A stretch of DNA of 16,698 bases, taken from positions 1 to 16,698 of IMG/VR virus record IMGVR_UViG_3300014527_000045; one strand, 5' to 3'. Shown one piece after another: positions 1 through 16,698 of this stretch (positions within the stretch are counted from its first letter, which is position 1; every line of letters begins with the position of its first letter). This DNA is from a virus (Duplodnaviria; Heunggongvirae; Uroviricota; Caudoviricetes). The notes beneath the pieces are model-generated. The model was not told where the DNA came from and made no database searches. It saw only the letters and a program-made list of their open reading frames with translations. The position numbers were made by a program, and so were the translations under genes.

Positions 1-789
1 GGGACCGGCAAGTTTAACAAGGGGGGCAACGAAGCCGACTTAAACCCTAACGTCGCCAACCGCAACAAAGGCCCGCGCCGTCAGCCGGAAAAGAATGTTT
101 TCACCGATGAACAGATTGAGAAGCTGGAAGAAATCTTCCATTCCTCCATGTTCAACTACCAGCGCCACTGGTGGGAAGCCGGAAAAACCAACCGCATCCG
201 CAACCTGCTGAAGTCACGCCAGATCGGCGCGACCTTCTATTTTGCCCGTGAAGCCCTGATTGACGCCCTGCTAACCGGACGTAACCAGATTTTCCTTTCC
301 GCCAGTAAGGCACAGGCCCACGTCTTTAAACAGTACATCATCGACTTCGCCAAAGAAGTGGAGGTGGAGCTGAAAGGCGATCCGATGGTGCTTCCCAACG
401 GGGCCACTCTTTACTTCCTCGGCACCAATGCCCGCACGGCCCAGAGTTACCACGGCAACCTGTATCTGGATGAATATTTCTGGATACCGAAATTCCAGGA
501 GCTGCGCAAAGTGGCTTCCGGTATGGCTATTCACAAAAAATGGCGACAAACCTATTTTTCCACGCCATCCAGCCTGACCCACAGTGCTTATCCGTTCTGG
601 TCCGGTGCGCTGTTCAACCGTGGACGCAACAAAGCCGACAAGGTGGACATCGACCTGTCCCATAGCAATCTGGCCCCCGGCCTGCTGTGCGCAGACGGGC
701 AATACCGCCAGATAGTCACCGTGGAAGATGCGGTGCGCGGCGGCTGTAACGCATGGAGTACAGCCCGGACGAATACCAGAACCTGCTGA
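1..789 (+). CDS. Phage terminase large (ATPase) subunit, P2 gpP-like, upstream segment. The frame is open from base 1, so the gene starts upstream of the window; this frame stops at 787-789
   Basis: Frame 1 is open from position 1 ([18 protein letters not shown]...), so the listed ORF at 148 is internal. The position immediately upstream of the portal gene and the size match the P2 gpP terminase. The assignment is from memory of P2 gene order, not a search. Confidence 0.75.
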
Positions 790-1463
790 TGTGCGAGTTC
801 GTGGACGATCTCGCGTCCGTGTTCCCGCTCAGCGAGCTGCAGGCGTGCATGGTGGACAGCTGGGAAGTCTGGACCGACTTTCATGCACTGGCCCTGCGCC
901 CGTTTGGCTGGCGCGAGGTGTGGATCGGTTATGACCCGGCAAAAGGTACGCAAAACGGCGACAGCGCCGGATGCGTGGTGGTGGCACCGCCAGCCGTGCC
1001 GGGCGGTAAGTTCCGCATTCTTGAGCGTCACCAGTGGCGCGGGATGGACTTCCGCGCCCAGGCTGACGCCATCAAAAAACTGACCGAACAGTACAACGTG
1101 ACCTATATCGGCATCGACTCGACGGGTGTCGGTCACGGGGTTTATGAAAACGTGAAAGCGTTTTTTCCAGCCGTCCGGGAGTTTGTCTACAACCCCAACG
1201 TTAAAAACGCCCTGGTACTCAAGGCCTACGACATTATCAGTCACCGTCGTCTGGAGTTTGACGCCGGACACACCGACATAGCGCAGTCATTTATGGCAAT
1301 CCGTCGCGCAACCACCGCCAGCGGCAACCGCCCGACCTATGAAGCAAGCCGCAGTGAAGAAGCCAGCCATGCCGATCTGGCCTGGGCAACAATGCACGCA
1401 CTGTTTAACGAACCGCTGCAGGGCGAGTCCGCCAATACCAGCAATATTGTGGAGATTTTTTGA
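753..1463 (+). CDS. Phage terminase large subunit, downstream segment in a different frame (continuation of the same gene after a frame break)
   Basis: The 236-aa ORF overlaps the upstream segment by about 40-60 nt in another frame. Its stop TGA at 1461-1463 overlaps the portal start ATG at 1463 (ATGA-type coupling). Together the two segments approach the expected size of a P2-type large terminase. Confidence 0.75.
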
Positions 1464-2497
1464 TGGGAAAGAGTAAAAAAAAACGCGCTGCGGCGACGAA
1501 CCAGATCCAGCATAAAAGCCAAGCTTCAGCCGAAGCATTCAGCTTCGGTGATCCCATTCCAGTACTTGACCGCCGCGAACTGCTGGACTATGTGGAATGC
1601 GTACAGACAGATCGCTGGTATGAGCCTCCCGTCAGCTTTGACGGACTGGCGCGCACCTTCCGCGCTGCCGTGCATCACAGTTCACCAATTGCAGTGAAAT
1701 GCAACATTCTGACCAGCACCTACATCCCTCACCCGCTTCTCAGCCAGCAGGCTTTTTCGCGTTTTGTGCTGGACTATCTGGTATTTGGTAACGCCTACTT
1801 GGAGAAACGCACGAACCGATTCGGTGAAGTTATCGCCCTTGAGCCTGCGCTGGCAAAATACACCCGACGCGGGTTAGACCTGGATACCTACTGGTTTGTA
1901 CAATACGGTATGACAACCCAGCCGTATCAGTTCGCGAAAGGCAGCATTTTTCATCTGATGGAACCGGACATCAACCAGGAGATCTACGGCCTGCCCGGTT
2001 ATCTTTCTGCCATTCCGTCAGCCCTGCTCAACGAGTCCGCCACGCTGTTCCGCCGCAAGTATTACATTAACGGCAGTCATGCAGGCTTCATCATGTATAT
2101 GACTGACGCCGCGCAGAACCAGGAGGATGTGAACAACCTCCGCAACGCGATGAAAAGCGCCAAAGGACCGGGCAACTTCCGTAACTTGTTTATGTACTCG
2201 CCTAACGGCAAAAAGGACGGGCTTCAGATCATCCCGTTGTCAGAAGTTGCAGCGAAGGATGAATTTCTGAATATCAAGAACGTGAGCCGGGACCGGGACG
2301 CCATGATGGCGGCACACCGTGTGCCGCCGCAAATGATGGGGATTATGCCGAATAATGTTGGGGGGTTTGGGGATGTGGAGAAAGCTAGTAAGGTTTTTGT
2401 GACAAATGAATTAGTACCTCTACAAAAAAAAATCCATGAATTTAATCAGTGGATAGGGATGCATATTATCAATTTCTCAGAATATAATATAGATTAA
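1463..2497 (+). CDS. Phage portal (capsid portal) protein, P2 gpQ-like
   Basis: ATG at 1463 gives [14 protein letters not shown]..., 344 aa, the length I recall for P2 gpQ. The ORF track starts 3 nt earlier at a TTG. It is coupled to the terminase stop. The last ~30 codons are markedly AT-rich, unlike the rest of the gene. Confidence 0.85.
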   Translation: MGKSKKKRAAATNQIQHKSQASAEAFSFGDPIPVLDRRELLDYVECVQTDRWYEPPVSFDGLARTFRAAVHHSSPIAVKCNILTSTYIPHPLLSQQAFSRFVLDYLVFGNAYLEKRTNRFGEVIALEPALAKYTRRGLDLDTYWFVQYGMTTQPYQFAKGSIFHLMEPDINQEIYGLPGYLSAIPSALLNESATLFRRKYYINGSHAGFIMYMTDAAQNQEDVNNLRNAMKSAKGPGNFRNLFMYSPNGKKDGLQIIPLSEVAAKDEFLNIKNVSRDRDAMMAAHRVPPQMMGIMPNNVGGFGDVEKASKVFVTNELVPLQKKIHEFNQWIGMHIINFSEYNID

Positions 2498-2520
2498 TTA
2501 TATATACATCCCTCTAACCT

Positions 2521-3204
2521 TTAAGGCATTCTATTCTCAAAAACATGCTTTATCGCAGTGGTAAAGCATCTATCTTTTACATTCTTTTTAAACTCATCAA
2601 AGACCATAGATCTAACATCTTCAATTTCACATCCTGATTCAATAAGCTGAGATGCACATCCGACCAGTTCCTTTATTAATGTCATGCTTAATTCTATTGC
2701 ACGTCTTCTTTCCGCCTTGACTCCTCCTGAGGACGGGTTTAAGTTAAATACTCTTAACGTAACCTCTGCCATTTTGTGTTCTTTCTCATTCAAGCCTTCT
2801 CTAATATGAACATCACCATTTTCCAAAAAATGGAAAAAAACATCTGGATTTTGTCTATCAGCTTTAATTAAATCATCATCGTTATATTTTTGCTTATCCT
2901 TATAAAACCCACACCTTTGCGGCTCACCACATGAGCCAAACAAATTAGACCACTCGAAAGTTAAATTTTTGTAATAACTTTTCCTGTAAAAATGTTCAAT
3001 ATGCCTCTCAACTTTATTTTTGCCACCACTTTTATGATGCTCTATTTTTTTCTCGCAATAAGCACATAATTTACCTTGCATTTTTATTATTTCTTCCCAT
3101 ATTTCTTTTTTATCATTTGATGATAGGGAATTCCAATCATCCCTCCTATAGTCAAATTTATTAAGAACGGAAGGCCCTGGCATTTGCCTAGATAGATATT
3201 TCAT
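2521..3204 (-). CDS. HNH-family nuclease (PtuB-like effector of the retron/Septu-type cassette)
   Basis: 227 aa with CAYCEKK...HIEHF...W.NL..SCGEPQRC, an HNH-type Cys/His arrangement. Its start at 3204 overlaps the ATPase stop at 3201-3203. AT-rich. Confidence 0.75.
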   Translation of the reverse strand: MKYLSRQMPGPSVLNKFDYRRDDWNSLSSNDKKEIWEEIIKMQGKLCAYCEKKIEHHKSGGKNKVERHIEHFYRKSYYKNLTFEWSNLFGSCGEPQRCGFYKDKQKYNDDDLIKADRQNPDVFFHFLENGDVHIREGLNEKEHKMAEVTLRVFNLNPSSGGVKAERRRAIELSMTLIKELVGCASQLIESGCEIEDVRSMVFDEFKKNVKDRCFTTAIKHVFENRMP

Positions 3205-4586
3205 TTTACATCCTTACTTCCAGAAAAGTGCTGATTTATCTTATTTTTGAACTCCAAAACAGATATAAGATCATCACACTCTTGAACTAAAGGATGGTCT
3301 AATCCGAAATGTTTAATAACTTTTTCTCTTAACAAAAGAGCCTCGTCACTGCTATAACGATTAAGCTCAACCAATTTTTTATATTCTTCAAGCCAACCAT
3401 TTTCTTTAGTAGAGGGTATAGGATCAGTTCTCATTCCATATAAAAGTGCATCCTGATTACTAACACCTTTTATTTGATAGTCGGGGTGAGACACTATCAA
3501 ATCATTAACACCATCTACTTCCACTTCCTGTAGAATACGCACTGAACGAGAGCTAACAGTGGATAAAACCTGTGGGCTATGGGTAGTAATTACAAATTGA
3601 ACATTTGGGAATGTAGATGTCAAACGCTCAATAATTGTCTGTTGCCATTGCGGATGCAAATGCAAATCAATTTCATCAATTAAAACAATCCCATATCCCA
3701 ATAGAGGATTAGATAAATTTGGATTAAGTAAAATTAAACGTCGAGCCAAATCACCAACTAAAGTAAATATAGTTTTCTCACCTTGAGACAACTGTTGAAT
3801 ATCTAATTCAACCTCTCCTTTTTTAAGGATAATCTTATAATCATCATCACCATAAACAAGCTTAATCCACTGAAATTCAGGCAAGAACTTTAGAATGGTA
3901 TTTATAACACTATCATAAAGTGATACTGCATTATTAAACTTATGTTCTCCTGATTGCAGAGATTTCATGTAGTTCAATTTTTCTTTAAGCGAAAGCTCTA
4001 AACCTTTTATAACTGTTGAATCAATATTATCAATCGCAGATAGTTGAGTTAATGTTGCTTTCAAACTCTGAATATCTGAAAATAACGCATTGATTGTCGT
4101 TTGTGACTCACTCAATTTCTCTTGTGAAGCTCTGTTATGAAGAAATACAAGCCATTGAAAAAAATCGGTAAAATCATTTCTGTCAAACTCGATTTCATCA
4201 TACACATCGAATTTTGACCATACAGTTTTAGTTTTAGCATTTTTTCTTTTCCTATCAACCCCACCGCCTATATAAGAACGCGCAATAGAATAATATGCCA
4301 TCAAAGGCAAGCTTGCATTATCAACATATTTATTCACAAGTCTATAAATACTTGCAAGTTTTTTTATCTCCAACAATTCATTATTTCTAGAATAATATGC
4401 CCCCTCTTTCGCTTTAGTAATCAAAATACTGGTATTAAAGTCCTTGAGTTTTATATTTGCATCAATTGATGCATACTCAACATCAACAGAGTTATTAACT
4501 TCATGGCTTTTAATATAAGTACCAGGCTTACTCTCCTTTTCAATATTTGATCTCAACCAACTCAAAACAATTGCTATTGCATCCAA
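3201..4586 (-). CDS. ABC-type (AAA_15/AAA_21-like, PtuA/OLD-like) ATPase; the N-terminal Walker A region is disrupted upstream of the annotated start
   Basis: Contains LSQGEKT (ABC signature-like), IVLIDEIDLHLHPQWQ (Walker B/D-loop) and VITTHSP (H-loop). The ORF as listed starts at a TTG and lacks a P-loop. Immediately upstream, in the same frame, the DNA reads VYMILNG-TAA-DGFGKSTILDAI, a Walker A motif GxxxxGKST with the stop at the first x (minus-strand codon at 4611-4613). Confidence 0.8.
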   Translation of the reverse strand: MDAIAIVLSWLRSNIEKESKPGTYIKSHEVNNSVDVEYASIDANIKLKDFNTSILITKAKEGAYYSRNNELLEIKKLASIYRLVNKYVDNASLPLMAYYSIARSYIGGGVDRKRKNAKTKTVWSKFDVYDEIEFDRNDFTDFFQWLVFLHNRASQEKLSESQTTINALFSDIQSLKATLTQLSAIDNIDSTVIKGLELSLKEKLNYMKSLQSGEHKFNNAVSLYDSVINTILKFLPEFQWIKLVYGDDDYKIILKKGEVELDIQQLSQGEKTIFTLVGDLARRLILLNPNLSNPLLGYGIVLIDEIDLHLHPQWQQTIIERLTSTFPNVQFVITTHSPQVLSTVSSRSVRILQEVEVDGVNDLIVSHPDYQIKGVSNQDALLYGMRTDPIPSTKENGWLEEYKKLVELNRYSSDEALLLREKVIKHFGLDHPLVQECDDLISVLEFKNKINQHFSGSKDVK

Positions 4587-4596
4587 AATAGTGCTT

Positions 4597-4785
4597 TTAC
4601 CGAATCCGTCTTATCCGTTTAAAATCATGTATACCTATTTTATTTAAATGAAACTTACTCTCATTTAAAGTAGATATTAGCTTTTGAAGCTCAACAGACT
4701 CCTTCAAATAATCCTCGTTTATCACATGTGATTCCAACTCTAAAAAATCAACATAGCAAGTCTCTAAATTCATTTTATTTATCAT
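4597..4785 (-). CDS. Short ORF coupled to the RT stop; probably the displaced N-terminal segment of the ATPase gene rather than an independent protein
   Basis: Its ATG overlaps the RT stop (TAATG). The 62-aa product ends ...KFHLNKIGIHDFKRIRRIR, which resembles the N-terminal strand of ABC ATPases, but it is in a different frame from the Walker A segment and overlaps it on the DNA. Confidence 0.4.
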   Translation of the reverse strand: MINKMNLETCYVDFLELESHVINEDYLKESVELQKLISTLNESKFHLNKIGIHDFKRIRRIR

Positions 4786-5720
4786 TATTTGTTTCCTTCC
4801 ATCAGGAACTTAGTTATTAACTCACAACCATATTTTTTTTGTAACCTTAATAAAAAATCACCCTCCAAATAATTTGCAAACGCAATCATCCCTTTGGTTT
4901 TATTTATTTCTTCGGAAGATAAGAGTCCCAAAGAATATTTATGAATCTTTGCAAACAGCATCCTTTTACGATCGCGACCAATTGATAAATTGCCCTGAGG
5001 TGTAAGTGTTACACCAGTCACGTGCCGATTATGAGCCATCGATGTAAAAATTGTTTTAGATTCATTGATTGATAGACCGGGAACATGGAGCGACAACATT
5101 TTTTTTACCACCTTAGGAACCCTGCACAATATATCCTTAATATTAGTTGAAAAAGTTATATCATCTGCATACCTTGAATAAGTGATACCATTGTTACGGC
5201 ACCAATCATCAAGACTCTTGTCAAAGTCATACATAACAAAATTACTAATAAATGGTGAGCTTGGCGCCCCTACACTTAATATCAACGTTGTACTTCTCTT
5301 TTTTCCCGGACGCCAAAAAAGCAAATTACGTAGGGTGTTCTCATCAAATGAATCCAATTTCAGCCCTGTGTTCTCAAGTTTCGAGAAAAATATATCAGGT
5401 TTAATTTTGTTAAAGAAGTTCTGAAAATCCATTTTAAGAATATAATTATTATCTTTATGCAACAATGCATTATCTTTAATACTTTTTTTATATTCATATG
5501 CCATTGCCTTATGATGAACAGGCAGCTTTGGCTGTAGCAAAGATACTATAAATCTCTGTACGTTTTTTAGTTCCTTTGTCGGCTGAGCTATCACCCGAAA
5601 ACCTGCGCCACGTTTAGGAATATAATAAACTTTATATTTTTTGGGGGCCTCATTTAAAAGTAATTGGAAAGCTAATCTATTATAATTAAACTTACTGATA
5701 ATTTTAGAAGTTAGTTGCAT
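4785..5720 (-). CDS. Retron-type reverse transcriptase
   Basis: 311 aa with YYIPKRGAGFRVIAQP (RT motifs 1/2), ILKMDFQNFF (motif A), GAPSSP, YSRYADDITF (YxDD catalytic motif), SINESKT (motif D) and HNRHVTGVTL (the VTG triplet typical of retron RTs). It is collinear with my recollection of the Ec86 RT. AGAGGGG lies 7 nt upstream of the ATG. Confidence 0.9.
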   Translation of the reverse strand: MQLTSKIISKFNYNRLAFQLLLNEAPKKYKVYYIPKRGAGFRVIAQPTKELKNVQRFIVSLLQPKLPVHHKAMAYEYKKSIKDNALLHKDNNYILKMDFQNFFNKIKPDIFFSKLENTGLKLDSFDENTLRNLLFWRPGKKRSTTLILSVGAPSSPFISNFVMYDFDKSLDDWCRNNGITYSRYADDITFSTNIKDILCRVPKVVKKMLSLHVPGLSINESKTIFTSMAHNRHVTGVTLTPQGNLSIGRDRKRMLFAKIHKYSLGLLSSEEINKTKGMIAFANYLEGDFLLRLQKKYGCELITKFLMEGNK

Positions 5721-5739: not shown

Positions 5740-5950
5740 AAGCGCCATGCAACTTTACATAGCGCTTTGACTCTTCACTAAAGACAGCGAAAGACACAGA
5801 TTTCTCCTTCGCATATCTGCCCCGGGCAGGGATGCGAAGGAGAAATCTGTGTCTTTCGCAACCCTAAACCGGACAATAAATTTAAGCCTGGCTAATCACC
5901 CGGCTGGAACCAATGTTCCTACACTAAAGAGCGTAATGATTTTAATGAAC
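5740..5950 (-). ncRNA. Candidate retron msr/msd non-coding RNA region, including a long msd-like hairpin (5787-5859)
   Basis: Directly upstream of the RT on the same strand. Perfect 28-nt inverted repeat (5787-5814 pairs with 5832-5859) around a 17-nt, partly self-complementary loop. I could not find the a1/a2 inverted repeats by eye, so the boundaries are provisional. Confidence 0.45.
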
Positions 5951-6783: not shown

Positions 6784-9156
6784 TTAATACAGGTTTCGCC
6801 ACTTATCATCTTCCTGCAAACGCTGGTTCCGATAGAAGATACGTAGGCCTGCTCCTGACGGAATACTGCCGCCGCGAAGCAGTAAATCGACCTCTTTCTC
6901 GCTGCCATCAAATCCCCTGGACTTCAGTTCATACACGAGCTGCAGTCGCTGATGGTCTGTAATTCGCTGTTTGTAGTCTTTACGCCGTTTCGGTTTCACC
7001 AGGCGTAACCTTGCTGCCAGTTCCCGGCGCTCTTTTTTGCTCATACTGTGCAGGTAATCGTGCAACTCCTTGTCATCCATGCGGGTGATATCCGTTCTGG
7101 TATCTCCATCAGTTGATTTGTCTTTCCCTTGTTGGTACAAATTTTCAGCAAGGGGACAGTTATTGCCACGAGTCCAAGGGGCGCAAGCGCCCTGGTCGGC
7201 TGCCGCCTCCTGAACGTCAACGGCTTTACGAACCATTTTCCACTTCACTGCATGAGTGCAGATCTTACCCTCTGCAATGGGTGACCAGATGCCATAAATA
7301 CGAATACCGTGATCGCCATAGGCGGTCGGCTCTTCGTTAATTTCATAAGCTGTTCTGATAAGGTGATATTTGCGGGGAACCAGCACGCCGCCCTGCTTCA
7401 TGATGTAGGTGGCAAAACAGCCAGCATCAGCAGCAGCCAGGATGGCATCAAGGCGTGGGTTATCCAGTACCGGCGCACCTGCTTTTTTGTCCCCCTGCTG
7501 CCTTGCCGCCTGACCAGCCAGCAATCGCAGTTCACGGTAAGCCTGACGCCCCGGAATACCAAAGAAGCGGAATTGCTGAACACGATGCAGAGACGCCCAG
7601 GCATTAACGTATTCAGCGTTATCACGCAGGGATTTACCCGTTTCCTTGCTGATCTCACCAGCCAGACCACGCCCGTCAATGTTCTTACTGATGTATTTCG
7701 CGATGTAGCTTGTTGGCGTACCTTTGCGCGGGTTTATCAGCTCAGACTTAAAGCGTGGTCCCGTGTTATTACCCAGCTCCTCGCGGTCTTCACGAATGGC
7801 AAACTTACGCAGTAATGCAGTGATGGCGCGGCGGTCTTTTTTGCGCATAAAACACAACAGGTGCCAGTGAACTGTACCGTCATGATGCGGCTCAGCCACC
7901 CGCACGCCATACCAGCGCAATCCGGCTTTGTGCATCGCCTTACGAAATGCAGCAAACATGCCGACCAAATAATCACTGCTTTGTCTTACTGTCGCGTTGG
8001 TCCAGGTCGGGTTTGGCCTGCCGTTATTTAGCGTGGAATGGAAACGTGACGGACAGGTGATGGTGTAGAAAACGGCGCAGTCACCACGCATTTCCGCGAT
8101 AAGCTCCAGGCCTTTAACACAGGCCATCATCTCGTTGCGGCGATGCGCCGGGTTGCTGCTGCTGGCGTTTACCACATCCTCCATGTTCAGCGTGTCGCCG
8201 TCTTCGTTCACCAGTTCATGAGAACGGAAAAACTCCAGCGACTTACGGCGCTGCTCACGTTTATGCATCACGGCTTCATAGCTGACATAGGGAGATGCTT
8301 TTTTGCTGACCAGGCAGACAGCACGCAACTGCTCTTCCCGCCATTCGCAACGCATCTTCCATAATTTCCGATACCACCAGTCGGCGCACAGCATACGCGC
8401 CAGCGAACCCGGAATGAGTTCATAAGGCACAGGTTTGCGGCGGTTTCTTTTCCGGCGGAGTTGCTCAAACGCAGGCGGTATGACATCCAGTCGCAGGGTT
8501 TCTGCAGCCACCTTTTCCCATGTCTTGCGGATTTCTTCTGGCTTAACATCATCGGTGGCATACAAATCACCACAAGCTACATCAAGGCACATACTCATAT
8601 GCGCAGCTACCAGGGTGGACAGGCGTTTCACCTGATCCTGACTCATTTCAGGCAGAATCAGCAGGCCGTCCAGCCCTTCATGGCTTGCCATAAAGCGAAA
8701 AGAAGTGGATAGCTGACTGTCGCGTACATGCTCCAGCCGTTCCAGACATGGCTTAATCGTCTCACGCAAATAGCGGGAATAAGCCTTTGGCCTGCCAAGG
8801 CTGCTGAAGTATTCAATACGTTGCATCAGCGGCTTGCTGATATGGGAAGGCTGGGCATTGACGTCCGCCAGAATGACCATATCTGGATTAAAACGCTGCT
8901 GCTCATGCGCCAGCTTTGCCCGACTAATGAGCTTATCCTGCTCCATTTCGCGCTGGACAGGATCACGGGATTCATTAAAGAAATAACGCTCCCAGACCTG
9001 ATCACTCAGTACCTCGCGGCGCAGGTGTTCCTGCTCGTTATCGGCAGCGTACAGAGCGATCAGGTTTGAAAGCGCAGAAACTGAAGATTGCTCTTCTGTC
9101 TCTACGTAAGGATTGATTGCTTTTTTCTCAGCATTCCAGGAATAGCTGTAGTTCAT
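6784..9156 (-). CDS. Replication initiation protein, P2 gpA-like (rolling-circle nicking enzyme)
   Basis: 790-aa ORF whose size and position (between the early region and the right-end/cos region) match gene A of P2/186 phages. Its start overlaps the stop of the upstream gene. The plus-strand ORFs inside it are antisense artefacts. Confidence 0.85.
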
Positions 9157-9986
9157 TACGCAATCTCCAGTTCGAGCTGTGAAGGCTGCAAACCATTCGA
9201 CAGCCAGTCAGAAACTGAAGGTGGGCGAACAGCTTCAATTGCACCTTTTAAAATTGCGCAACGGTTTTTCAGAATGACAGCTTTCAGCTCCTTTTCCGTC
9301 AGATTGCGCGAATACTCAGCCTCCTGAATAGCCCGCGTAAGCTCAGGATATTTGCTATTAAATTTGGGGACATTGCAGGCAAGATTTGTACTGTCGGCAG
9401 TCGCCAGTGGGTAATTTCCCAACACACGACCGTCAAGCATGCGCAAACCATGAACAGCTGTTTTGAAATTGTGTCGGCAATAAATTGCTTCAAAAGCGTC
9501 CTGCATACGACGATGCCAGTGCGCAGTTCTAATAGCCGCATATTCACCAGACGATCCAAAGCAGACACGAGGCCATTCACGACATAGCTCGATAAGCCGA
9601 TCGATTGACTCGTGCAGATGCCAGACGGGAGTTGCCTTCCCGTAGAACATTTTCGGAACTTCGTTTATCAGGGCATCATTGTCACGTTCACCTCCGTCCA
9701 CAACATCAGGAATGACAAAAAAAGCGACCTTAGGATGGTGGTAATAGTTCAGGAGCCATTTATAAAAATCACTCCAGTTAATTTTTAGCCCACGCCCCCA
9801 TGCAGAAAATGCGCCGTTATCAATGCCAACGACCTGAGCGTGCTGAATGGACGCCGCAATCTGATCTGGTCGTACATAGGAGACGAAAGCACCAGCTCCG
9901 CTCACCGCAATACGATGAACGTCGCCAGCACTTCCCCAGACAGGCGTCCCATGGAAATGATGAATTCCGTGGTGCATTTCTTTCAC
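9156..9986 (-). CDS. Conserved phage protein of unknown function, co-transcribed with Dam
   Basis: 276-aa ORF overlapping Dam at its 5' end (9983-9986) and gene A at its 3' end (9156). I do not recognise the family. Confidence 0.6.
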
Positions 9987-15856: not shown

Positions 15857-16684
15857 ATGACCGTAAATTCTTCACGTAATGCATTGAAACGCCGAACCTG
15901 GGCGCTGTTTATGTTCTTCTTTTTGCCAGGCCTGTTAATGGCGTCCTGGGCAACCCGTACGCCTGCTATCCGCGATATTCTCTCTGTCTCGATCGCTGAA
16001 ATGGGCGGTGTTCTCTTTGGTCTGTCGATCGGTTCGATGAGCGGTATTCTCTGCTCGGCGTGGTTAGTGAAACGCTTTGGGACGCGTAATGTCATCCTTG
16101 TGACGATGTCCTGCGCATTGATTGGGATGATGATATTAAGTCTGGCACTCTGGCTGACATCGCCCTTGCTCTTTGCCGTTGGTCTCGGCGTCTTTGGGGC
16201 TAGTTTTGGTTCTGCGGAAGTGGCGATAAACGTTGAAGGTGCCGCCGTTGAGAGAGAAATGAATAAGACGGTTTTACCGATGATGCACGGTTTTTATAGC
16301 CTGGGCACGCTGGCAGGCGCAGGTGTCGGGATGGCACTGACGGCCTTTGGCGTTCCGGCAACGGTGCATATTTTATTGGCGGCGCTGGTAGGCATCGCAC
16401 CTATTTATATCGCCATTCAGGCAATCCCTGACGGTACGGGCAAAAATGCTGCCGATGGCACCCAGCATGGTGAAAAAGGCGTACCTTTTTATCGGGATAT
16501 CCAGTTGCTGTTGATTGGTGTTGTGGTGCTGGCGATGGCCTTTGCCGAAGGTTCTGCCAACGACTGGTTACCCTTATTAATGGTTGATGGTCACGGTTTT
16601 AGCCCTACTTCCGGCTCGCTGATTTATGCCGGTTTTACCCTGGGGATGACCGTTGGACGCTTTACCGGCGGGTGGGTTATTTAA
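15857..16684 (+). CDS. ybjJ: MFS-type inner-membrane transporter YbjJ, host gene, divergent from rcdA; stops unusually early at 16682-16684
   Basis: From the ATG at 15857: [27 protein letters not shown]..., with multiple hydrophobic segments. The ORF ends 14 nt before the window end, at about 275 aa, whereas I recall YbjJ as roughly 400 aa. Confidence 0.75.
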
Positions 16685-16698
16685 CGCTTCCGGCGCGG

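What the first reader, a model, noticed from the sequence alone, without database searches (positions are those of the whole stretch)
700..790. Terminase large-subunit gene is split across two reading frames
The frame open from base 1 stops at 787-789, and the rest of the gene continues in another frame from about 728-753 to 1463, overlapping by tens of nucleotides. P2-type large terminases are single polypeptides, so this is a frameshift: either a genuine inactivating mutation (defective prophage) or a sequencing error near the GC-rich run cgcggcggc (735-743). Two other genes in the window (the cassette ATPase and ybjJ) are also interrupted, so either systematic indel errors or real gene decay is at work.
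Basis: seen in the sequence. Interest (0 to 1): 0.45.

Follow-up and report, generated by a model that had tools for sequence, protein, structure and literature searches.

The report
22-bp deletion breaks prophage terminase gene
The large terminase gene of a P2/186-like E. coli prophage is split because 22 bases present in every relative are missing, which is ordinary prophage gene decay or, less likely, a flaw in a rough draft contig.

Summary
Frame 1 runs from base 1 to TGA 787-789. Frame 3 reopens after TAA 747-749, has an ATG at 753 and runs to 1463. Together they encode a P2-type gpP terminase ATPase subunit.

The cause is not a 1-2 nt indel in the GC run. It is a clean 22-bp deletion (CCTGTTCGACCTTGACCAGTTG) at 749|750. 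The flanks match E. coli SC475's intact 588-aa gene perfectly. About 1,200 complete E. coli genomes and 60 phage records keep the 22 bp. The junction occurs in no collection searched, so the deletion is private to this sequence.

The deletion removes L345-L351 and shifts the frame inside the Pfam ATPase-domain model, not in the linker. There is no slippery site. As written, the gene is dead.

The retron Ec78 ATPase ptuA carries a similar 50-bp deletion through its P-loop. The ybjJ "interruption" is noise: both window ends are dense with errors, which suggests a whole draft contig.

Other assemblies carry different lesions in the same stretch of gpP, so inactivation recurs. I favour a real deletion in a decaying prophage (about 0.6) over a sequencing, cloning or assembly artefact (about 0.33). 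This is an ordinary finding of low interest.

The parts
1..789 (+). N-terminal part of gpP (terminase ATPase subunit), frame 1. It corresponds to residues 95-344 of the 588-aa protein. It then reads 12 out-of-frame codons ([12 protein letters not shown]) and stops at TGA 787-789. It contains the YQ motif, Walker A (SRQIGAT), Walker B (LYLDEY) and STPSS.
   Evidence: (Terminase_6N profile 1-178 of 215)
749..750 (+). Deletion junction. The 22 bp CCTGTTCGACCTTGACCAGTTG are present in all relatives and missing here. Microhomology is at most 1 nt. The deletion removes L345-L351 and shifts the frame by -1.
   Evidence: alignment with phage 813R9, E. coli SC475 and ST95-32; records span 22 nt more than the query
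736..744 (+). It is intact in this window and is not the lesion. Two other assemblies (L005 +2 nt, L011 -1 nt) do carry small indels in this run.
750..1463 (+). C-terminal part of gpP, frame 3. It is open after TAA 747-749, with ATG at 753, giving a 236-aa ORF equal to residues 353-588. Residues 2-30 still belong to the ATPase-domain model. Residues 58-219 are the RNase H-like nuclease domain.
1463..2497 (+). Portal gene Q, intact. It carries an in-frame 6-bp tandem duplication CGGGAC (2288-2293 and 2294-2299) that is absent from relatives.
3201..4785 (-). Retron Ec78 (type I-A) ATPase ptuA, split by a 50-bp deletion at 4609|4610. The deletion removes the strand and the first half of the P-loop (..DLTVFVGDN|GFGKST). 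This is the second frameshifting deletion in the window.
   Evidence: PtuA profile 10-69 and 92-532 of 535
1..24 (.). Error-dense left end of the window. There are 4 differences from 9 of 9 relatives, which are invariant here, followed by none against SC475 for the next 725 nt.
16676..16698 (.). Error-dense right end of the window. About 10 of the last 23 nt differ from every E. coli ybjJ. It includes the TAA (16682-16684) that 'interrupts' ybjJ.

Best explanation
The window is the right arm of a P2/186-like (Peduoviridae) prophage of E. coli, inserted next to rcdA-ybjJ. Its large terminase gene gpP has lost 22 bp at 749|750.

The loss deletes residues L345-L351 and shifts the frame by -1. Translation from the gene's own start reads 12 wrong codons and stops at 787-789. 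The remaining 236 codons, which hold the end of the ATPase domain, the linker and the whole nuclease domain, sit in another frame behind an ATG with no good ribosome-binding site.

The break falls inside the ATPase-domain model, so neither piece is a complete domain. As written, the prophage cannot cut and package DNA. I take this to be a real, lineage-private deletion in a prophage that is decaying.

Shown here: the deletion, its position, its absence elsewhere and the domain mapping. Inferred: loss of packaging function, and that the deletion is biological.
For: - Alignment shows a single clean 22-nt gap with identical flanks. SC475 differs from the window by 8 substitutions over window 2-4616, 3 of them in the first 24 nt, and by no 1-nt indel.
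- About 1,200 complete E. coli genomes and 60 phage records carry the extra 22 nt within one annotated terminase CDS.
- Pfam places the break inside the ATPase model: the N piece matches Terminase_6N positions 1-178 of 215, C-piece residues 2-30 match positions 186-214, and the nuclease domain starts only at C-piece residue 58.
- Tens-of-bp deletions with at most 1 nt of microhomology are not the usual platform error. The flanks of both deletions are error-free, unlike the true contig ends.
- A third private change, a 6-bp in-frame tandem duplication in the portal gene, is a typical replication-slippage mutation.
- Independent gpP inactivation is common in other assemblies: a nonsense codon, small indels and five multi-kb deletions.
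Against: - The junction is found nowhere else: 5,426 complete E. coli genomes, GTDB representatives, IMG/VR and JGI metagenomes. No independent assembly confirms it.
- The portal variant and the ptuA fragment are also not on record.
- Both window ends are dense with errors, so the source is probably a rough, low-coverage draft contig.
- Three multi-base indels against 8 substitutions in 4.6 kb is a high ratio for natural divergence.
- No reads were available.
Confidence: 0.6

Rival explanations
1. The 22-bp gap, and the 50-bp gap in ptuA, are artefacts of how this sequence was produced. Possible routes are a low-coverage draft in which a single aberrant read or clone set the consensus, deleted clones of toxic genes in a shotgun library, or a mis-join. 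Under this reading the living prophage has an intact gpP.
For: - Both ends of the window carry dense errors seen in no relative: 4 in the first 24 nt and about 10 in the last 23 nt. This suggests an untrimmed, thinly covered contig.
- The junction and the other private variants appear in no collection.
- Three multi-base indels sit within 4.6 kb that otherwise differs by only 8 substitutions.
- Both deletions hit genes whose products could plausibly be toxic when cloned, a nuclease-bearing terminase and a retron effector ATPase. This last point is inference.
Against: - Deletions of 22 and 50 bp with at most 1 nt of microhomology are not typical of Illumina, 454, PacBio or ONT consensus error, and de Bruijn mis-joins need long shared k-mers.
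- There are no homopolymer or single-base indels across 4.6 kb.
- The sequence next to both junctions is perfect, unlike the real contig ends. This argues against concatenated contig ends.
Confidence: 0.33
2. The split is functional. Either the two pieces (a 356-aa ATPase part and a 236-aa nuclease part) assemble in trans into a working two-chain terminase, or ribosomes shift frame by -1 between 750 and 786 to make a near-full-length protein.
For: - All recognised ATPase motifs lie in the N piece and the complete nuclease domain lies in the C piece.
- The C piece starts with a natural in-frame Met.
- PHROGs holds separate 'terminase large subunit' families of about half length, phrog_3746 (374 positions) and phrog_5909 (285 positions), which match the two pieces.
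Against: - The break lies inside the ATPase-domain model, where profile positions 179-185 are lost and 186-214 are separated from the rest. It is not in the linker.
- No X XXY YYZ slippery heptamer occurs in frame-1 codons 745-789 (read directly).
- There is no significant local structure (z = +0.86).
- No Shine-Dalgarno better than GGCGG precedes ATG 753.
- The arrangement is not conserved. The junction is unique, and other split copies have unrelated lesions.
Confidence: 0.03
3. The deletion is real but not random. Either it was templated by a short ectopic copy in gpM, or it arose at a breakage hot spot in gpP that is also used by larger prophage-inactivating deletions.
For: - The new junction 14-mer GCTGTAACGCATGG already exists on the same strand 3.65 kb upstream in the gpM region of the intact SC475 prophage. 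The rough chance in a 48-kb locus is about 2e-3, estimated post hoc.
- Five independent multi-kb deletions in other assemblies end within a few nt of one or other boundary of the 22-nt segment.
Against: - The look-up that found those deletions only recovers events giving the identical 236-aa ORF. Their endpoints are therefore confined by ascertainment to a few tens of nt upstream of the ATG.
- They use ordinary 2-8 nt microhomologies.
- The ptuA junction has no templating match.
- There is no hairpin at the site.
- The 14-mer match was noticed after the fact.
Confidence: 0.04

Closest known systems
P2 gpP / 186 P terminase ATPase (large) subunit, Pfam Terminase_6N + Terminase_6C
   Same: It has the same domain content and order and lies directly upstream of portal gene Q. 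It is identical to the E. coli SC475 prophage gene across the aligned 221-nt region around the deletion, and differs from it by 3 substitutions over window 2-1463, all in the first 24 nt.
   Different: It is not one continuous 588-aa ORF. A 22-bp deletion splits it at residue 344/353, inside the ATPase-domain model.
Pseudogenised morphogenesis genes of cryptic or defective prophages in E. coli (general knowledge), and the other broken gpP copies found here (L005-L014)
   Same: It is a loss-of-function lesion in a late gene of an otherwise recognisable prophage. The same 236-aa leftover ORF is called as a gene in 58 blocks of the assembly collection searched.
   Different: The lesion is private. 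The other copies have a +2 or -1 nt indel, a TAG nonsense codon or 3.6-16 kb deletions instead.
Programmed -1 frameshift of P2-type tail chaperone genes E/E+E' (established knowledge; both genes are annotated in the SC475 prophage)
   Same: There are two overlapping reading frames in a P2-like late gene.
   Different: That signal is conserved and uses a slippery sequence. Here there is no slippery site, no conservation, and a demonstrable deletion relative to the intact gene.
Retron Ec78 (type I-A: RT + PtuA + PtuB) in the cos-proximal hot spot of P2-like phages between gpA and gpQ (PMC9122126)
   Same: The cassette lies between portal Q and DinI/gpA and matches RT_I-A, PtuA and PtuB. An msd-like hairpin lies at 5787-5859.
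   Different: ptuA is broken by a 50-bp deletion through its P-loop.

Membership tests
P2 gpP-type large terminase | N-terminal T4-type ATPase domain (Terminase_6N) with Walker A and Walker B motifs | tested here: met
   E 2.8e-53, but only profile positions 1-178 of 215 are in the N piece. Motifs SRQIGAT and LYLDEY are present.
P2 gpP-type large terminase | C-terminal RNase H-like nuclease domain (Terminase_6C) | tested here: met
   E 2.8e-50, profile positions 1-154 of 155, at residues 58-219 of the 753-1463 ORF.
P2 gpP-type large terminase | Both domains on one continuous polypeptide of about 588 aa | tested here: not met
   a 22-bp deletion puts the two parts in different frames. Relatives have a single 1767-nt CDS.
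P2 gpP-type large terminase | Synteny: the gene is followed by portal gene Q and preceded, divergently, by scaffold gene O | tested here: inconclusive
   Q follows at 1463-2497. O lies outside the window.
Programmed ribosomal frameshift site | Slippery heptamer in the overlap, plus a stimulatory structure | tested here: not met
   No X XXY YYZ heptamer in codons 745-789. The DNA fold of the region gives z = +0.86.
Programmed ribosomal frameshift site | The two-frame arrangement is conserved among relatives | tested here: not met
   The junction is absent from all collections. About 1,200 genomes have the continuous ORF.
Retron type I-A (Ec78) | RT, PtuA ATPase and PtuB HNH genes in one operon, with an msd hairpin upstream | tested here: met
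   RT_I-A 4.9e-131, PtuA 3e-166, PtuB 1.5e-117; 36-nt arms at 5787-5859. However, the PtuA P-loop is deleted and Rfam gave no match.

The most novel reading that the evidence does not exclude
The 22-nt segment of gpP marks a deletion-prone site in P2-like prophages. Its two boundaries are reused by independent multi-kb deletions in other E. coli assemblies. In this window the junction reproduces a 14-mer from gpM 3.65 kb away, which hints at templated (ectopic template-switch) mutagenesis that recurrently disables packaging.
Probability: 0.04. Interest if true: 0.4.

Novelty: already known. Interest (0 to 1): 0.08.

Why it matters
It matters mainly for annotation. This gpP should be called a pseudogene, or flagged as a possible assembly error, rather than two genes. 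The prophage should be treated as probably packaging-defective, and its retron Ec78 as probably inactive. The ybjJ "pseudogene" should be discounted as contig-end noise. The finding adds nothing new about terminases or recoding.

Tried and rejected
- **Small indel in the GC run.** Rejected: the run is intact.
- **Programmed frameshift.** Rejected: no slippery heptamer and no conservation.
- **Hairpin or quasi-palindrome at the deletion site.** Rejected: the DNA fold is no better than shuffles.
- **Repeat-mediated slippage.** Rejected: microhomology is at most 1 nt at both deletions.
- **Concatenated contig ends.** Unlikely: the junction flanks are clean, whereas the true ends are noisy.
- **Finding the source assembly or a second copy of the junction.** Nothing in complete E. 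coli genomes, GTDB representatives, IMG/VR or JGI metagenomes. Exact-protein look-ups of the portal variant and the ptuA fragment also found nothing.
- **Sequence search of PDB with intact gpP, to place the deletion in a solved structure.** Only spurious collagen hits. I did not run the large homologue search or AlphaFold, because the Pfam coordinates answered the domain question.
- **P2 cos 19-mer recalled from memory.** Not found, so I make no claim about cos.
- **Rfam search for the retron RNA.** No match.
- **Templating of the ptuA junction.** No match.

Full report
**Observation**

The frame open from base 1 encodes GTGKFN...VRGGCN and then [12 protein letters not shown], stopping at TGA 787-789. 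Frame 3 has TAA at 747-749, then CGC, then ATG at 753, and stays open to 1463. The two open stretches overlap by 40 nt.

Pfam calls the first piece Terminase_6N (E 2.8e-53) and the second Terminase_6C (E 2.8e-50). The split is therefore real at the stated coordinates.

**What the lesion is**

Megablast of 1-1463 against phage records, and of 500-1000 against complete E. coli genomes, gave full-length matches whose span in the record is always 22 nt longer than the query. The spans were 1484 versus 1462 nt and 523 versus 501 nt. This held in 60 phage records and about 1,200 E. coli genomes, all annotated as one terminase ATPase subunit CDS.

Alignment with phage vB_EcoM-813R9 and the E. coli SC475 prophage shows one gap. 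The window lacks CCTGTTCGACCTTGACCAGTTG between 749 and 750, with a 1-nt ambiguity from the shared C. SC475 is identical at every other aligned position and 813R9 differs at only 3.

The GC run (736-744) is intact. Twenty-two bases equal 7 codons plus 1 nt, so L345-L351 of the 588-aa protein are lost and the frame shifts by -1.

**Context**

The host flank (rcdA, ybjJ) is 99.7% identical to E. coli ST95-32. The window is the P-Q-hot-spot-A-dam-cII-CI-int arm of a P2/186-like prophage.

The P-Q-cargo part is nearly identical to the SC475 prophage, with 8 substitutions over window 2-4616. The cargo between Q and DinI/gpA is retron Ec78, type I-A, with RT, PtuA and PtuB. This is the known cos-proximal defence hot spot of P2-like phages (PMC9122126).

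**Other differences from SC475 in those 4.6 kb**

- An in-frame 6-bp tandem duplication, CGGGAC at 2288-2299, in the portal gene.
- A 50-bp deletion at 4609|4610 in ptuA. It removes ..DLTVFVGDN of the P-loop and shifts the frame. PADLOC PtuA profile positions 10-69 and 92-532 end up in separate ORFs.
- No single-base indels.

**The third "interrupted" gene**

The ybjJ stop (16682-16684) lies in the last 23 nt of the window. About 10 of those bases differ from ybjJ, and none of the 4,655 complete E. coli genomes that match the query covers more than 75% of a 69-nt query ending there.

The first 24 nt likewise have 4 differences from nine relatives that are invariant there, followed by a perfect match. 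Error clusters confined to both ends suggest that the window is an entire draft contig with untrimmed, thinly covered ends. The ybjJ "interruption" is best read as noise.

**Is the deletion seen elsewhere?**

A 44-mer across the junction, too short on each side to seed on intact copies, matches none of 5,426 complete E. coli genomes. Shorter junction patterns match nothing in GTDB representative genomes, IMG/VR or JGI metagenomes. The portal variant and the ptuA N-fragment are not on record as proteins. The lesion is therefore private to this sequence.

**Other broken copies of gpP**

The exact 236-aa leftover ORF is nevertheless a called gene in 58 blocks of the assembly collection. Reading the upstream DNA of ten such places shows different lesions:

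| Locus | Lesion |
|---|---|
| L005 | +2 nt in the GC run |
| L011 | -1 nt in the GC run |
| L012 | -1 nt further upstream |
| L006 | TTG to TAG nonsense codon |
| L007 | N-ridden assembly, lesion not interpretable |
| L008, L009, L010, L013, L014 | deletions of 3.6-16 kb that remove late genes and end just upstream of the ATG, using 2-8 nt microhomologies |

Inactivation of gpP in P2-like prophages is thus recurrent, and this case is one more instance.

**Consequence**

Pfam aligns Terminase_6N positions 1-178 to the N piece and positions 186-214 to residues 2-30 of the C piece. The nuclease model starts only at residue 58 of the C piece. The cut is therefore inside the ATPase-domain model and not in the interdomain linker.

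There is no slippery heptamer in codons 745-789. There is no significant local structure. ATG 753 has only a weak GGCGG upstream. I infer loss of terminase function and a packaging-defective prophage. This is an inference and was not tested.

**Real or artefact?**

For a real deletion:
- Deletions of 22 and 50 bp with at most 1 nt of microhomology are not typical platform errors.
- Their flanks are clean, unlike the true contig ends.
- There are no single-base indels.
- The 6-bp duplication is a classic slippage mutation.
- Real decay of gpP is common elsewhere.

For an artefact:
- The contig is visibly rough at both ends.
- Nothing independent confirms the junction.
- Three multi-base indels against 8 substitutions is a high ratio.
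- Both deletions hit potentially toxic genes, which could be selected against in clone libraries (inference).

I put a real deletion at about 0.6, an artefact at about 0.33, and the rest on the minor rivals.

**Oddities**

The new junction 14-mer GCTGTAACGCATGG pre-exists on the same strand in the gpM region 3.65 kb upstream in the intact SC475 prophage. The chance of this is roughly 2e-3, estimated post hoc. The ptuA junction has no such match.

The five large deletions in other assemblies end within a few nt of one or other boundary of the 22-nt segment. However, the look-up by identical ORF confines the endpoints it can find to a short interval. I record these points as unexplained and treat a templated or hot-spot origin as a low-probability reading.

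**Verdict**

The thing itself is an ordinary frameshifting deletion (pseudogene or artefact) in a well-known gene of a well-known prophage type. It has low interest and no novelty.

Noticed in passing
window 3201-4785 (-), junction 4609|4610: Retron Ec78 (type I-A) ATPase ptuA carries a 50-bp deletion relative to four E. coli genomes. It removes the strand and first half of the Walker A loop and shifts the frame. RT (4785-5720) and PtuB (2521-3204) are intact.
   Followed up: yes
window 1-24 and 16676-16698: Both ends of the window are dense with substitutions seen in no relative. The window is probably a whole draft contig with untrimmed ends, and the premature TAA in ybjJ (16682-16684) lies in this noise.
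   Followed up: yes
window 2288-2299: An in-frame 6-bp tandem duplication (CGGGAC x2, giving ..SRDRDAM..) in portal gene Q. It is absent from SC475 and ST95-32, and this portal sequence is not on record in the protein collection.
   Followed up: partly
window 9156-9986 (-): A 276-aa ORF sits between dam and gpA. It matches phrog_887 'queuine tRNA-ribosyltransferase' (DpdA-like, E 8e-96) and has no Pfam hit. It is absent from the SC475 and ST95-32 prophages but present in about 102 complete E. coli genomes, where it is annotated as hypothetical. gpA here is 790 aa, versus 804 aa in relatives, and has a replaced N-terminus.
   Followed up: partly
window 743-756; L004 (SC475) reverse-complement position 25105: The deletion junction 14-mer GCTGTAACGCATGG is identical to a sequence in the gpM region 3.65 kb upstream, on the same strand, in the intact relative. 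This is either coincidence (about 2e-3, post hoc) or a templated event.
   Followed up: partly
L008, L009, L010, L013, L014 (about 5-30 nt upstream of the 236-aa ORF): Five independent 3.6-16 kb deletions in other E. coli assemblies end at one or other boundary of the same 22-nt segment of gpP, using 2-8 nt microhomologies. Ascertainment by identical ORF may explain the clustering.
   Followed up: partly
L005 and L011, GC run equivalent to window 736-744: Other assemblies have +2 nt and -1 nt indels exactly in the GCGCGGCGGC run, giving the same stop and the same leftover ORF. That run is indel-prone, either biologically or in sequencing.
   Followed up: partly
window 5787-5859: A near-perfect 36-nt-arm inverted repeat lies upstream of the retron RT, consistent with the msd stem. 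Rfam gave no match at gathering thresholds anywhere in the window.
   Followed up: partly
window 1-1463 versus PHROGs: PHROGs contains separate half-length 'terminase large subunit' families, phrog_3746 (374 positions) and phrog_5909 (285 positions), that match the two pieces. This suggests split gpP annotations also exist in deposited phage genomes.
   Followed up: no
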